Shown in pieces: positions 2,188 through 45,716 of a stretch of DNA of 64,000 nt. The stretch's first letter is position 1. The number at the start of each line of letters is the position of its first letter. The stretch comes from a bacterium (GTDB taxonomy: Bacteria; Patescibacteriota; CPR2; UBA1875; JAJYID01). The notes beneath the pieces were generated by a model. That model saw only the letters and a program-made list of their open reading frames with translations. It ran no database searches and was not told where the DNA came from. A program made the translations under genes and the position numbers. The DNA lies in assembly GCA_021787535.1 (NCBI GenBank), contig JAJYLR010000001.1, positions 383,687 through 447,686 of the forward strand, given 5' to 3'.

Positions 2188-2229
2188 GTTTTACCGATTA
2201 TAAAGAAAAATCTTTACATAAGAATAATT

Positions 2230-2575
2230 TTAATTTAAACTGATATTAAGTAAGGAATGTGGGCTAAGCAACTAAGGAGGTGAAACCTTATTATGAAGAC
2301 TGTATTCCTGAAACTAGCTCTCGCGGCGGCTAACGCGAGAAGCAGTCGGCTCGACGATGGCGAAGTATCTTGTTGCGAGTCTGACGGTGTAACTGGAGAG
2401 TCGGCGTGCTTCGGCGCCAGACTCCAGGGAACAACTTCGCAGATTTCACAGGTGCTTTAATCGCTGCTAGGCACAGTACAACGTTTTACCGAAAATCCAA
2501 AATTAGGTAATCCTCTGGATTTTCATGCGTTGTTGTTCCCGGTAAACCCCTAAGGGTGGCTCTTCGAGCCACCCT
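2230..2575 (+). other. GC-rich structured island: candidate ncRNA of unknown class, or a 57-aa Cys-containing sORF
   Basis: GC about 55-60% against about 38% in the flanks. Several hairpins are present. There is a long-range pairing between ggaacaacttcgca (2428) and tgcgttgttgttcc (2526). It ends in a 9-bp stem with a UUCG tetraloop, 'gggtggctcTTCGgagccaccc' (2554-2574). Confidence 0.3.
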
Positions 2576-2593
2576 ATTCTTATGCAGGTAAAT

Positions 2594-2630
2594 GGACAAA
2601 AGAAAAATGGGACCCGAGCGGGTCCCATTT
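2594..2630 (-). terminator. Intrinsic terminator for the DCD gene
   Basis: Hairpin 'aaatgggacccgagcgggtcccattt' followed on the minus strand by a U-run (ttttcttttg). Confidence 0.6.
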
Positions 2631-2650
2631 TGACCTTGCGAGAACGGCAT

Positions 2651-3814: not shown

Positions 3815-3960
3815 CTTGAAATCCTCCGTTTCGTAGGTCGTTTTTTCAAAAGGGCGTTACAAAAAGAGGGCATGCAAACTCAGACCCTCGCAAATATGTG
3901 TAATGTAAAAGTAGTTTAACTGAAAAAAAGTGTTTTGTAAAGACGGCTAACTTTAATATA

Positions 3961-5184: not shown

Positions 5185-5544
5185 TTAATTTTCAGCTTGA
5201 GTATTTTCTTCTTTTTCAGACTTAACATCGACAGTTTCTTCAGAGAGCTCTTCTTTGATTTCTTCCATTTTCTCATCGAGTTTAGTTGTGTCGACCGGCT
5301 GTTTCTCTTTCTTAATCTTTGGTTTCTGAGCAGCTTTCAATTTTTCAGCCGCTTCCATTTTTGCCTTAAATTTATCAACCCGGCCGGCGGTATCAACCAG
5401 TTTTTGTTTCCCTGTAAAGAAGGGATGACAAGCGCTGCAGATTTCCACTGTCAAATCACCCACGGTATTCATGGTTTCTATCACGTTGCCGCAACCGCAG
5501 GTAACGCGCGCTTTTTTGTATTCCGGATGAATTCCTTTTTTCAT
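5185..5544 (-). CDS. rpmE: 50S ribosomal protein L31 with a Lys/Glu-rich C-terminal extension
   Basis: MKKGIHPEY… with CxC…CxxCHPF zinc-ribbon motifs, plus a charged tail of about 45 aa. Confidence 0.85.
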
Positions 5545-5643: not shown

Positions 5644-5808
5644 ATGGATAAGAAAGTTATAATGCTTGGAATGTTGGTTGGTTCAGCGGTAGGCAGCTTT
5701 GTACCGCTTCTCTGGGGAGGGAATTTGCTTTCATTTAGTTCTATAATCTTTACAGTAATCGGCGGGATTTTCGGTATCTGGAGCGCCTATAAACTTGCAA
5801 ATTTATAA
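5644..5808 (+). CDS. Small hydrophobic protein, 54 aa, two predicted TM segments (hypothetical sORF)
   Basis: ATG to TAA open frame MDKKVIMLGMLVGSAVGSFVPLLWGG…IFGIWSAYKLANL. It lies in the intergenic gap and the RBS is weak. Confidence 0.3.
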   Translation: MDKKVIMLGMLVGSAVGSFVPLLWGGNLLSFSSIIFTVIGGIFGIWSAYKLANL

Positions 5809-5982: not shown

Positions 5983-6798
5983 ATGGCAGAAGTATCAATG
6001 CAGGAACTCTTTGAAGCAGGGGCGCATTTCGGACACCAGACGCAGAGATGGAATCCGAAGATGGCTCCTTATATTTTTACCCAAAAAAACAAAGTTCATA
6101 TTATCGACCTTGCGCAAACAGTCGAAAAACTGAGTGATGCAAAGAAGTTTATAGAACAAACCGTATCGAAAGGCGGTAAAATACTCTTTGTGGGCACAAA
6201 AAAACAAGCCCAAAGTATAATCAAAGAAGAAGCTGAAAAATGCGGTATGCCGTATGTTTCAGAGAGATGGCTTGGCGGAATGCTGACAAATTTCCAGACT
6301 ATAGCTTCCAGAACTAAGTATATGAAGGACCTTAAAGCGAAGCTTGAGGAAAACACTGAGATGACAAAAAAAGAAAAACTGAAGGGTGAGGAGGAATTAA
6401 AGAAACTGGAGAGTAATCTTGGTGGAATTATGGATCTAACCCGAGTGCCTGATGCGCTTTTTGTGGTAGATATTTCCAAAGAGATGACAGCAGTCAAAGA
6501 AGCAAAAAAAATAGGTCTGCCTATCGTGGCCATTGTTGATACCAATGTAAATCCGGAACTTGTTGATTACCCTATTCCGGCAAATGATGATGCAGTAAAG
6601 GCCATAAAACTAGTTTGTTCCTTTGTTTCAGGCGTTGTTCAGAATACTCCAGTAAAGTTAAAGGAGGAAACACCAGTCAAGGCCGAGATTAAGATAAAAG
6701 AAGAAAAAGGCGAAGAAATTGCAGCAGAGAAAGTCGAAGAAAAAGATAAGGAATTTTTAAGCAAAGAAAAAAAGAAAGAGGAAAAAGGAGGAAAATGA
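5983..6798 (+). CDS. rpsB: 30S ribosomal protein S2 with a Lys/Glu-rich C-terminal extension
   Basis: MAEVSMQELFEAGAHFGHQTQRWNPKM…; ends in a TGA stop. Confidence 0.95.
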   Translation: MAEVSMQELFEAGAHFGHQTQRWNPKMAPYIFTQKNKVHIIDLAQTVEKLSDAKKFIEQTVSKGGKILFVGTKKQAQSIIKEEAEKCGMPYVSERWLGGMLTNFQTIASRTKYMKDLKAKLEENTEMTKKEKLKGEEELKKLESNLGGIMDLTRVPDALFVVDISKEMTAVKEAKKIGLPIVAIVDTNVNPELVDYPIPANDDAVKAIKLVCSFVSGVVQNTPVKLKEETPVKAEIKIKEEKGEEIAAEKVEEKDKEFLSKEKKKEEKGGK

Positions 6799-16463: not shown

Positions 16464-16492
16464 TTGACCAATTTTTTAATATTTGTTAAAAT
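16464..16492 (+). promoter_or_regulatory. Sigma70-type promoter (TTGACC, 17 nt spacer, TAAAAT) with a hairpin leader upstream of rplJ
   Basis: Seen directly. Downstream is 'gtagcagcgaaagcttaatttgctac', a hairpin that may be the L10 leader. Confidence 0.55.
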
Positions 16493-16609
16493 GTTAATTA
16501 GCCAAAGACAGTAGCAGCGAAAGCTTAATTTGCTACCGAGGTAAAGATTTAGATAATTTTTATTCATCTTTGGTTTGTCCAAAGATTTTTAATTTATAGG
16601 AAATAAAGT

Positions 16610-45642: not shown

Positions 45643-45716
45643 TCCCGGGTCGGCTAATGGTAGGCCGCAAGGTTCTGGCCCTTGTAATCTTGGTTCGAGT
45701 CCAAGCCCGGGAGCCA
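45643..45716 (+). tRNA. tRNA-Gln (anticodon CUG), CCA encoded
   Basis: Cloverleaf folded by hand: acceptor tcccggg/cccggga with U1:A72, AC stem caagg/ccttg with loop ttCTGgc, T-arm cttgg-ttcgagt-ccaag, discriminator G, CCA. Confidence 0.75.

What the first reader, a model, noticed from the sequence alone, without database searches (positions are those of the whole stretch)
2230..2575. GC-rich structured island of about 340 nt between the ABC-2 permease and the DCD gene: unclassified ncRNA candidate or small Cys-rich secreted-peptide gene
Seen in the sequence. This is a sharp GC spike, about 55-60% against about 38% background. It holds multiple stable hairpins, for example ctcgcg-gcggctaa-cgcgag and ggagagtcggcg…cgccagactcc.

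There is a long-range pairing of ggaacaacttcgca (2428) with tgcgttgttgttcc (2526), 12 of 14 bp. The region ends in a 9-bp stem capped by a UUCG tetraloop (2554-2574).

It also contains an AAGGAGGTGA-led 57-codon ORF. The product is MKTVFLKLALAAANA|RSSRLDDGEVSCCESDGVTGESACFGARLQGTTSQISQVL, signal-peptide-like with an AxA site and 4 Cys.

I could not match it to tmRNA, RNase P or SRP RNA. It may be a novel structured RNA or a horizontally acquired small peptide gene.
Basis: partly seen in the sequence, partly recalled or inferred. Interest (0 to 1): 0.55.

Follow-up and report, generated by a model that had tools for sequence, protein, structure and literature searches.

The report
Conserved structured RNA with small ORF
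The GC-rich island is a self-contained small gene in a tiny-genome (Patescibacteria-like) bacterium, and its roughly 330-nt RNA keeps the same set of helices in two diverged relatives while the 55-residue peptide it could encode is not conserved, so it is a new lineage-restricted structured RNA rather than a Cys-rich peptide gene or a known RNA family.

Summary

No Rfam family, tRNA or tmRNA model, Pfam or NCBIfam model, or protein database entry matches. The only peptide relative found is one 60-aa ORF in a related contig.

Two related contigs (DCD 80% and 74% identical) carry the same cassette, but on the other side of the DCD gene. Shared features are:
- a TTTACA-17-TAnAnT promoter;
- a GGAGGTG ribosome-binding site followed by ATG;
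- helices P1, H1, H2 and H3;
- a long-range helix P5 (GGGAA.../...UUCCC);
- an intrinsic terminator.

All three transcripts fold better than shuffled controls (z -3.3, -5.0, -3.4). In a covariance-model alignment, 92% of pair cells are standard pairs and 20 of 55 pairs changed on both sides. None of 500 shuffles matched this, and slid controls gave about 40% pairing.

Peptide similarity is no better in the ORF frame than in other frames. One relative has its ATG out of frame. Even so, the homologous frame is stop-free in all three (p about 0.003-0.01).

Verdict: this is a new, narrowly distributed structured RNA gene that carries an sORF with a partly occluded start site. The fold is the selected feature, and the function is unknown. 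Only three sequences are available.

The parts
2202..2211 (+). A-rich upstream element AAAGAAAAAT. It is conserved upstream of the -35 in all three homologues and is the left copy of a 10-nt direct repeat that brackets the cassette.
   Evidence: Alignment A1 has invariant AAGAAAAA..TTTACA. Direct repeat D1 is at 2202-2211 and 2599-2608.
2213..2241 (+). Sigma-70-type promoter, TTTACA - 17 nt - TAAACT. The transcription start is inferred at about 2248-2250.
   Evidence: Promoter scan of the window. The equivalents are TTTACA-17-TAAATT in L002 and TTTACA-17-TAATAT in L003. The start site is inferred, not measured.
2253..2309 (+). P1: the 5' stem (2253-2265 paired with 2297-2309) encloses the SD hairpin and the AUG. 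Its 3' arm is codons 2-6 of the sORF.
   Evidence: MFE and centroid folds. It is helix 1/2: 12 pairs, 5 of them changed on both sides. RNAalifold recovers it independently.
2274..2283 (+). Shine-Dalgarno AAGGAGGTGA, partly paired in a small hairpin (GGAGG/CCUU, 2277-2289).
   Evidence: Sequence. It is conserved as GGAGGTG or GGGGGTG in L002 and L003. It is helix 3. The ensemble probability of the SD being unpaired is 0.49, 0.28 and 0.11 in the three RNAs.
2293..2460 (+). sORF of 55 aa: MKTVFLKLALAAANARSS...QISQVL. It runs through P1-3', H1, H2, H3 and the P5 5' strand and stops 31 nt into the P5 domain.
   Evidence: ORF list. The homologous frame is stop-free in all three homologues. The amino-acid sequence is not conserved beyond the nucleotide identity. 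GC1/2/3 is flat.
2317..2343 (+). H1 hairpin: 9 bp with an 8-nt loop.
   Evidence: It is helix 4: 9 pairs, 3 of them changed on both sides.
2345..2385 (+). H2: a long irregular hairpin. It is larger and branched in L002 and L003.
   Evidence: The base of the helix covaries (helix 5, 4 pairs changed on both sides).
2394..2426 (+). H3 hairpin, which ends immediately 5' of GGGAA.
   Evidence: It is helix 6: 12 pairs, 6 of them changed on both sides.
2427..2441 (+). P5 5' strand, GGGAACAACUUCGCA.
   Evidence: Inverted repeat I1. Pair probabilities are 0.73-0.81. Positions 6-8 covary among the three homologues.
2491..2524 (+). Hc hairpin (GAAAAUCCA...UGGAUUUUC) inside the P5 domain. It is the last hairpin before the P5 3' strand.
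   Evidence: The homologous stems are GAAAAG/CUUUUC in L003 and GGAAGG/CCUUUC in L002.
2526..2540 (+). P5 3' strand, UGCGUUGUUGUUCCC.
   Evidence: It lies 11-16 nt upstream of the terminator stem in all three homologues.
2553..2585 (+). Intrinsic terminator: a 10-bp stem with a UUC loop (2553-2575), then a T-rich tail.
   Evidence: Terminator scan of the window. Equivalent terminators are found in L002 and L003.
2599..2608 (+). Right copy of the direct repeat AAAGAAAAAT, which abuts the DCD/ABC bidirectional terminator (2604-2631).
   Evidence: L003 has TAAGAAAAAT directly before the equivalent terminator hairpin in its 'empty' ABC2-DCD spacer.

Best explanation
Positions 2202-2585 form an autonomous small gene with its own promoter and terminator. 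Its transcript is about 330 nt long and highly structured, and selection acts on the RNA fold rather than on the peptide sequence.

The conserved architecture is:
- P1, a 5' stem that encloses a partly paired Shine-Dalgarno sequence and the AUG, and whose 3' arm is codons 2-6;
- three consecutive hairpins, H1, H2 and H3;
- P5, a long-range helix (GGGAA.../...UUCCC) that closes a variable multi-hairpin domain containing the conserved hairpin Hc;
- an intrinsic terminator.

A 55-codon ORF starts in the P1 loop, runs through H1-H3 and the 5' strand of P5, and stops 22-31 nt inside the P5 domain in every homologue.

The most likely mode of action is that of a dual-function, translation-gated RNA. 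The folded RNA is the stable and probably functional species. P1 and the SD hairpin limit ribosome loading. When ribosomes do load, they read a short, fast-evolving peptide and unwind H1-H3 and P5.

Shown: the conserved promoter, SD, ATG and terminator; the conserved helices with compensatory changes; the lack of peptide conservation; and the open frame.

Inferred: that the region is transcribed, the position of the transcription start, that P1 gates initiation, that the ORF is translated, and any trans-acting role of the RNA.
For: Independent gene unit:
- The promoter TTTACA-17-TAnAnT and an intrinsic terminator are present in the window and in both homologues.
- The cassette sits in a different place relative to DCD in the window than in L002 and L003, so it is not a UTR of a neighbouring gene.

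Structure:
- Folding z-scores are -3.3, -5.0 and -3.4 for three sequences that are nearly unalignable in the core.
- The helices occur in the same order and at the same positions in all three.
- A covariance model built from the window sequence alone finds both homologues end to end as the top hit, with E = 9e-4 and 0.014.
- On that alignment, 91.7% of cells are paired and 20 of 55 pairs changed on both sides. No shuffle out of 500 reached this. Slid controls gave 38-44% paired and 1-5 such pairs.
- RNAalifold independently recovers P1, the SD hairpin, H1 and H3, with 21 of 42 pairs compensatory.
- P5 has pair probabilities of 0.7-1.0. It is unlikely by chance in each sequence (p = 0.009, 0.10, 0.049), and positions 6-8 covary (CG/UA/UA, AU/GC/GC, AU/AU/GC).
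- The GC content of the core is at the 99.7th percentile of an AT-rich window.

Ribosome engagement:
- A canonical SD 7-9 nt before an ATG is conserved.
- The homologous frame is stop-free in all three.
- The stop codon falls at the same structural place in all three.
- Positions +4 to +17 are mostly paired in two of the three.

The peptide is not the conserved feature:
- BLOSUM scores in the ORF frame are no better than in other frames (33 against 41), and the mature parts are not similar (p = 0.6-0.9).
- GC1/2/3 is flat in the window ORF.
- The ATG in L003 is +1 out of frame.
- No protein-family or database relatives exist beyond P0122.
Against: - Only three independent sequences are available, so covariation statistics are weak. 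R-scape-type significance cannot be reached.
- The pair counts were made on an alignment fitted to the structure, which biases them towards that structure.
- There are no expression data. Transcription, the 5' and 3' ends and translation are all inferred.
- No conserved unpaired motif that would indicate a ligand, protein or target was identified.
- Preservation of an open frame together with a conserved hydrophobic N-terminus is also what a fast-evolving secreted peptide gene would show.
- GC-rich sequences fold well in any case, although the dinucleotide shuffles control for this.
Confidence: 0.6

Rival explanations
1. It is an ordinary gene for a small, fast-evolving secreted peptide or lipoprotein. 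The conserved N-terminus is a signal peptide, the mature part is hypervariable, and the hairpins only stabilise the mRNA.
For: - A strong SD and ATG are conserved.
- The homologous frame is open in all three.
- The hydrophobic, Ala-rich N-terminus is conserved, and L002 has ...ATNA|C, which is lipobox-like.
- Gene callers called the ORF in two genomes (P0001, P0122).
Against: - Similarity in the ORF frame is no better than in other frames, and the mature parts are not similar.
- The Cys residues are not conserved.
- The ATG in L003 is out of frame with the conserved frame.
- GC1/2/3 is flat and unlike neighbouring genes.
- No relatives were found in 1.84 billion representatives searched with full HMMER.
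- The h-region is short and is interrupted by Lys in the window peptide.
- Helices inside the 'hypervariable' coding part are kept by compensatory changes, which is hard to reconcile with diversifying selection on the peptide.
Confidence: 0.2
2. It is a purely non-coding RNA. The SD and AUG serve only as a ribosome-binding 5' stabiliser or decoy, and the ORF is incidental.
For: - The fold, not the peptide, is conserved.
- L003 keeps all helices (z = -3.4) although the start of its frame is broken.
- From general knowledge rather than any test here: SD-like 5' stabilisers are known in Gram-positive bacteria, for example the Bacillus thuringiensis cryIIIA STAB-SD element, characterised in B. subtilis.
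Against: - The homologous frame is stop-free in all three, with the stop codon at the same structural position (p about 0.003-0.01).
- The ATG itself is conserved at canonical spacing from the SD.
Confidence: 0.15
3. It is a type I toxin-like mRNA: a small toxic peptide whose translation is held off by an SD/start-occluding fold, with an antisense RNA antitoxin.
For: - It is a highly structured sORF mRNA in which the start region lies inside a conserved stem.
- Its taxonomic range is narrow and its sequence evolves fast, which is typical of type I loci (general knowledge).
Against: - No transmembrane-grade hydrophobic segment is present: the maximum 19-residue Kyte-Doolittle mean is 0.47-1.16, below the usual 1.6 threshold.
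- No promoter-like site was found on the opposite strand across the cassette in the window or L002; the one in L003 (TTGGCA-17-TATTGT, 1362-1390 +) has no counterpart in the other two, so no conserved antisense promoter was seen.
- Long-range pairing between the SD and the 3' domain is no better than chance (p = 0.10-0.23).
- There is no PADLOC or Rfam-type match. The only hit is a chance BsrG hit on the wrong strand at E = 8.6.
Confidence: 0.04
4. It is a very divergent copy of a housekeeping RNA (tmRNA, RNase P RNA, SRP RNA or 6S RNA), or there is no function at all and it is a GC-rich remnant or mobile fragment.
For: - Its size and GC-richness resemble stable RNAs in AT-rich genomes.
- The cassette has moved and is bracketed by a 10-nt direct repeat.
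Against: - No Rfam match was found even at E up to 10 in any of the three homologues, and ARAGORN finds no tmRNA.
- There is no tRNA-like end, no RNase P conserved region CR-I (GGAAAGUCCGG-type motif) and no SRP domain IV motif in the sequence (read by eye).
- It is absent from the DCD loci of relatives with 46-61% DCD identity. A housekeeping RNA would be expected more widely, but only those loci could be searched.
- Compensatory changes and the conserved promoter argue against junk.
- It is single-copy in the 64 kb window.
Confidence: 0.03

Closest known systems
Dual-function (coding and structured) bacterial sRNAs, e.g. Staphylococcus RNAIII/hld, Bacillus SR1/SR1P, E. coli SgrS/SgrT
   Same: It is an independently transcribed RNA of a few hundred nucleotides with many conserved hairpins and an embedded small ORF that has its own SD. 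As in those RNAs, the RNA fold is conserved.
   Different: There is no sequence or covariance-model similarity. No target-pairing region was identified. Here the ORF spans most of the structured body rather than a separate module, and the peptide sequence is not conserved.
Type I toxin mRNAs (hok, fst/RNA I, aapA1, bsrG)
   Same: It is a structured sORF mRNA whose initiation region lies inside conserved pairing. It has a long-range helix, a narrow distribution and fast sequence turnover.
   Different: The peptide is not transmembrane-grade hydrophobic. No antisense partner was seen. The long-range helix P5 does not involve the 5' end or the SD.
Orphan structured ncRNA candidates found as GC-rich intergenic islands in AT-rich genomes (GC-IGR type discoveries; general knowledge)
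   Same: It is a GC-rich island in a long intergenic gap of an AT-rich genome, with its own promoter and terminator, covarying helices and no Rfam family.
   Different: It carries a canonical SD-ATG and a maintained open frame. Only three representatives are known, all from one narrow Patescibacteria-like lineage.
Small signal-peptide or lipoprotein genes (entericidin/OsmB-like small lipoproteins)
   Same: The product would be 55-60 aa with an N-terminal Ala/Leu-rich stretch. L002 has a Cys directly after ...TNA.
   Different: The Cys is absent from the window and L003 peptides. No family match was found. There is no amino-acid conservation in the mature part.

Membership tests
Rfam families (tmRNA, RNase P RNA, SRP RNA, 6S RNA, riboswitches, known sRNAs) | Covariance-model score at or above the family gathering threshold | tested here: not met
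   No hit in 2100-2750 at gathering thresholds. At E up to 10 there are only scattered sub-threshold hits of 13-21 bits to unrelated families, and none is shared among the three homologues.
tmRNA | A tRNA-like acceptor and T-arm domain plus a tag reading frame | tested here: not met
   ARAGORN finds only tRNA-Gln at 45643-45716 in the window. The RNA ends in an intrinsic terminator, not in a ...CCA acceptor.
Type I toxin-antitoxin toxin mRNA | A small peptide with a transmembrane-grade hydrophobic helix | tested here: not met
   The maximum 19-residue Kyte-Doolittle mean is 0.47 (window), 1.07 (L002) and 1.16 (L003), all below 1.6.
Type I toxin-antitoxin toxin mRNA | An overlapping or adjacent antisense RNA antitoxin | tested here: inconclusive
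   No promoter-like site on the opposite strand across the cassette in the window or L002; L003 has one (TTGGCA-17-TATTGT, 1362-1390 +) that the other two lack. Consensus scans cannot exclude a weak promoter.
Type I toxin-antitoxin toxin mRNA | A translation initiation region sequestered by conserved intramolecular pairing | tested here: met
   P1 pairs the 5' UTR with codons 2-6 and covaries. The SD is 11-49% unpaired in the ensemble.
Sec or lipoprotein signal-peptide small proteins | An n-h-c signal peptide with a cleavage site, predicted by a dedicated tool | not testable with these tools
   SignalP and LipoP are not available. By eye, the window h-region (TVFLKLALAAA) is short and contains Lys, and only L002 has a Cys after ...TNA.
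Sec or lipoprotein signal-peptide small proteins | Purifying selection on the amino-acid sequence, with similarity specific to the reading frame | tested here: not met
   The ORF-frame score (33) is no higher than the off-frame score (41). The mature parts give p = 0.6-0.9. The ATG in L003 is out of frame.
Conserved structured RNA (generic criterion) | Helices maintained by compensatory substitutions in diverged homologues, above controls | tested here: met
   20 of 55 pairs changed on both sides and 91.7% of cells are paired. No shuffle out of 500 reached this, and slid controls gave 1-5 pairs and about 40%. RNAalifold finds 21 of 42 pairs compensatory. P5 and Hc covary. The caveat is that there are only 3 sequences and the alignment was fitted to the model.
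Dual-function sRNA | Both the RNA and its peptide shown to be made and active | not testable with these tools
   This needs RNA-seq, Ribo-seq or mass spectrometry, and genetics.

The most novel reading that the evidence does not exclude
This is the founding member of a new class of 330-430-nt structured RNA, specific to one Patescibacteria-like lineage, that acts at the RNA level. In it, a conserved ribosome-binding site and a read-through ORF are part of the mechanism: translation remodels helices H1-H3 and P5 rather than making a conserved protein.
Probability: 0.3. Interest if true: 0.7.

Novelty: new variant of a known kind. Interest (0 to 1): 0.5.

Why it matters
Non-coding RNAs of candidate-phyla-radiation (Patescibacteria) bacteria are almost unexplored. 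In these genomes of about 0.6 Mb every retained element is likely to matter.

This cassette keeps its promoter, ribosome-binding site, open frame and six helices while nearly every nucleotide in the helices has changed. That makes it a clean case for asking whether selection acts on the RNA fold, on the act of translation, or on the peptide.

If it is confirmed, it adds a new RNA family to a lineage for which the literature searches here turned up no described lineage-specific structured RNA. It would also provide a covariance model with which to look for more members.

Tried and rejected
1. Known RNA families. Rfam at gathering and E-value thresholds on all three homologues, and ARAGORN, found nothing.

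2. Peptide homologues. A word-index search with the single peptide and with a 3-peptide alignment, and a full HMMER search of 1.84 billion representatives, found only P0001 and P0122 plus one weak hit (P0123, E 8.5e-4, a 21-residue stretch of a 412-aa protein). Pfam and NCBIfam gave no match.

3. More homologues of the cassette.
- The DCD-anchored scan of genome contigs found no relative.
- A promoter + GCTARG + SD pattern scan gave 11 hits in genome contigs, 8 in metagenome contigs and 0 in viral contigs. An nhmmer profile found the cassette in none of the 19 loci, and model R2 (run on the 8 metagenome loci) found none either, so they are chance matches.
- The DCD loci of relatives with 46-61% DCD identity (L004-L010, L030-L032) do not carry it, even with filters off.

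4. Phage origin. blastn against 50,697 phage records found no match.

5. Diversity-generating retroelement (DGR)-type variable/template repeat or a paralogue. There is no second copy in the 64 kb window.

6. Long-range SD:anti-SD pairing with the 3' domain. Pairings were seen by eye in all three, but they are no better than shuffles (p = 0.10-0.23), so the idea was dropped.

7. MITE-like mobile element. A 10-nt direct repeat and a 10-nt inverted repeat flank the unit. They are not adjacent to each other, and the inverted repeat is not clearly present in L002 or L003. Recombination at the AAGAAAAAT microhomology is the simpler account.

8. Structure-aware MAFFT (Q-INS-i and X-INS-i) is not installed, so Infernal alignments were used instead.

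9. Literature. Two full-text searches found no description of such an RNA in Patescibacteria or the CPR.

Full report
**Setting**

The window is AT-rich (39.5% GC) and bacterial. Its genes include RF1, L31, S2, an ABC ATPase with an ABC-2 permease, and a long-form dCTP deaminase (DCD). The closest named relative of the DCD protein is from a 'Patescibacteria group bacterium'. The source contig is 635,771 bp, which fits a candidate-phyla-radiation genome.

The finding lies in a 463-nt gap between the stop of the ABC-2 permease (2187, + strand) and the stop of DCD (2651, - strand).

**Observation check**

The reported hairpins are all present. So are the 12-of-14 long-range pairing (13 of 15 when extended to GGGAACAACTTCGCA/TGCGTTGTTGTTCCC), the terminal stem-loop and the AAGGAGGTGA-led ORF (2293-2460). 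The + strand folds better than dinucleotide shuffles (z = -3.3; the - strand gives -2.8).

- The reported range 2230-2575 is 48% GC. Only the core 2300-2450 reaches 56% (99.7th percentile). The neighbouring genes are 44-48% GC.
- The ORF is 55 aa and has 3 Cys.
- The terminator has a 10-bp stem with a UUC triloop, not a UUCG tetraloop.

**No known family**

- Rfam 15 gives nothing at gathering thresholds, and only scattered chance-level hits at E up to 10.
- ARAGORN finds no tmRNA.
- The peptide has no relative in 5.8 billion protein clusters apart from itself.
- It has no Pfam or NCBIfam match.

**Homologues**

Contigs that encode the closest DCD relatives were fetched. L002 has 80% DCD identity and L003 has 74%, and both keep the ABC-DCD-RF1 neighbourhood. 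Their ABC2-DCD spacer is only about 65 nt.

nhmmer found the homologous element on the other side of DCD, between RF1 and DCD. It keeps the same orientation relative to the neighbouring genes (L002 3829-3578, E = 1.8e-8; L003 1424-1179, E = 7e-7). The cassette and DCD have therefore swapped order:
- window: ABC> E> <DCD <RF1
- L002 and L003: ABC> <DCD E> <RF1

The RF1-DCD spacer in the window lacks the cassette cleanly.

In the window the cassette is bracketed by a 10-nt direct repeat, AAAGAAAAAT (2202-2211 and 2599-2608). The same motif precedes the cassette's -35 in L002 and L003. It also precedes the DCD/ABC terminator hairpin in the empty site of L003. This points to recombination at that microhomology.

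The element is therefore an autonomous unit and not a UTR of a neighbouring gene. It is also not a recent foreign acquisition.

**What is conserved in sequence**

The three copies share (alignment A1; scans):
- the A-rich upstream element;
- a TTTACA-17-TAnAnT promoter;
- GCTA(A/G)G;
- the SD (GGAGGTG or GGGGGTG) 7-9 nt before an ATG;
- about 45 nt after the ATG;
- a GGGAA(C/T) motif;
- an intrinsic terminator.

The 100-150 nt between these anchors are essentially unalignable.

**What is conserved in structure**

Each homologue folds far better than its shuffles (z = -5.0 for L002 and -3.4 for L003). The minimum-free-energy helices fall in the same order and at almost the same distances in all three:
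- P1, a 5' stem that encloses a small SD hairpin and the AUG;
- H1;
- H2;
- H3, which ends exactly at GGGAA;
- P5, formed by GGGAA... pairing with ...UUCCC 84-149 nt downstream;
- inside the P5 domain, a conserved last hairpin Hc;
- after a further 11-16 nt, the terminator.

A covariance model built only from the window sequence and its own fold (R1) finds L002 and L003 end to end as the best hit in each locus (E = 9e-4 and 0.014).

On the resulting alignment:
- 91.7% of pair cells are standard pairs.
- 20 of 55 pairs have changes on both sides.
- None of 500 column shuffles reaches these values.
- Sliding the partner by 1-3 columns drops pairing to 38-44% and compensatory pairs to 1-5.

RNAalifold run on the same alignment predicts P1, the SD hairpin, H1, the base of H2 and H3 on its own, with 21 of 42 pairs compensatory.

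P5 has ensemble pair probabilities of 0.7-1.0. Runs of this length are improbable by chance (p = 0.009, 0.10, 0.049). The helix covaries at positions 6, 7 and 8 (CG/UA/UA, AU/GC/GC, AU/AU/GC). Hc covaries as well.

Two caveats apply. There are only three sequences, and the alignment was fitted to the model.

**Coding or not**

For translation:
- The canonical SD and ATG are conserved.
- The homologous reading frame is free of stops in all three copies, whereas the other frames carry 1-4 stops.
- The stop codon lies 22-31 nt after the start of P5 in every copy.

Against a conserved protein:
- BLOSUM local scores in the ORF frame (window against L002: 33) do not beat an off-frame comparison (41).
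- The 'mature' parts are not similar (p = 0.62 and 0.90 against the window peptide, 0.046 for L002 against L003).
- The Cys residues are not conserved.
- GC1/2/3 of the window ORF is flat (0.57/0.52/0.54), against about 0.52/0.35/0.45 for neighbouring genes.
- In L003 the SD-proximal ATG is +1 out of frame with the conserved frame and opens an unrelated 39-codon ORF.
- A profile of the two called peptides, searched by full HMMER against 1.84 billion representatives, finds nothing else credible.
- None of the peptides has a transmembrane-grade hydrophobic stretch.

For comparison, DCD is 74-81% identical among the same genomes, while these peptides are 25-28% identical.

**Interpretation**

The selected feature is the RNA fold. 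The SD, the ATG and an open frame are also retained, so ribosomes probably engage the RNA.

P1 pairs the 5' UTR with codons 2-6. The SD is partly paired (probability unpaired 0.11-0.49), and positions +4 to +17 are mostly paired in two of the three RNAs. Initiation is therefore likely to be gated by structure.

I favour a structured, translation-gated sORF RNA of the dual-function type (confidence 0.6). The rivals are:
- a plain fast-evolving secreted-peptide gene (0.2);
- a purely non-coding RNA whose SD acts as a stabiliser (0.15);
- a type I toxin-like mRNA (0.04);
- a divergent housekeeping RNA, or junk (0.03).

A by-eye idea that the SD pairs with the 3' domain did not survive a shuffle test.

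**Distribution**

The cassette was found only in the window genome (L001 is the same sequence from a Logan assembly) and in L002 and L003.
- A 22-base promoter + GCTARG + SD pattern returned only chance hits in genome contigs and metagenome contigs, and none in viral contigs (checked).
- The DCD loci of more distant relatives (46-61% DCD identity) have a different gene order and no copy, even with filters off.
- No copy was found in phage records.
- No paralogue exists in the 64 kb window.
- Two literature searches found no description of such an RNA.

**Verdict**

This is a real, conserved and previously unclassified structured RNA gene that carries an sORF. It is lineage-restricted, its function is unknown, and it rests on three sequences. 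Its interest is moderate.

Noticed in passing
window 2202-2211 and 2599-2608; L002 about 3822-3832; L003 about 2760-2770 and 1403-1413: The 10-nt direct repeat AAAGAAAAAT brackets the cassette in the window. The same motif precedes the cassette's -35 in L002 and L003, and it precedes the DCD/ABC terminator hairpin in the empty ABC2-DCD spacer of L003. The cassette and DCD have swapped order between the genomes, probably by recombination at this microhomology.
   Followed up: partly
window 2217-2226 and 2575-2584: A perfect 10-nt inverted repeat, CATAAGAATA / TATTCTTATG, flanks the unit. The first arm lies in the promoter spacer, so it is not part of the RNA. It is not clearly present in L002 or L003 and may be a chance match in AT-rich DNA.
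   Followed up: partly
window 2604-2631: A perfect 13-bp palindrome (AAAATGGGACCCG/CGGGTCCCATTTT) with A/T tracts on both sides acts as a bidirectional terminator for DCD. Equivalent hairpins sit in the ABC2-DCD spacers of L002 and L003.
   Followed up: partly
window 16484-16600 and 45643-45716: There is an Rfam L10 leader (68.6 bits) and a tRNA-Gln(CTG). The tRNA is the GC maximum of the window. These are the only Rfam and ARAGORN hits in the 64 kb.
   Followed up: no
window 5185-5544 (-) and 5983-6798 (+): Ribosomal proteins L31 (119 aa) and S2 (271 aa) carry long Lys/Glu-rich C-terminal extensions. A 54-aa two-helix membrane-like ORF (5644-5808) sits just upstream of rpsB.
   Followed up: no
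L030 13327-14428 (GCA_041737595.1): About 1.1 kb between thyX and rplJ in a more distant relative has no called gene. This is longer than an L10 leader needs. Model R2 finds no copy of the cassette there.
   Followed up: partly
L003 1315-1330 (- strand): Relative to the window, L003 lacks one nucleotide just after the ATG (ATGGCAC against ATGAAGAC). This puts the ATG out of frame with the conserved ORF. It could be a real frameshift or an assembly error, and that cannot be decided without the reads.
   Followed up: partly
L002 8493-10165: In L002 a DNA-sulfur-modification-associated gene (PF27807) and an SMC-like ATPase lie about 1 kb beyond the ABC transporter (two small genes between). This looks like a defence-type neighbourhood. 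The corresponding stretch of the window genome lies beyond the window's start and could not be examined.
   Followed up: no
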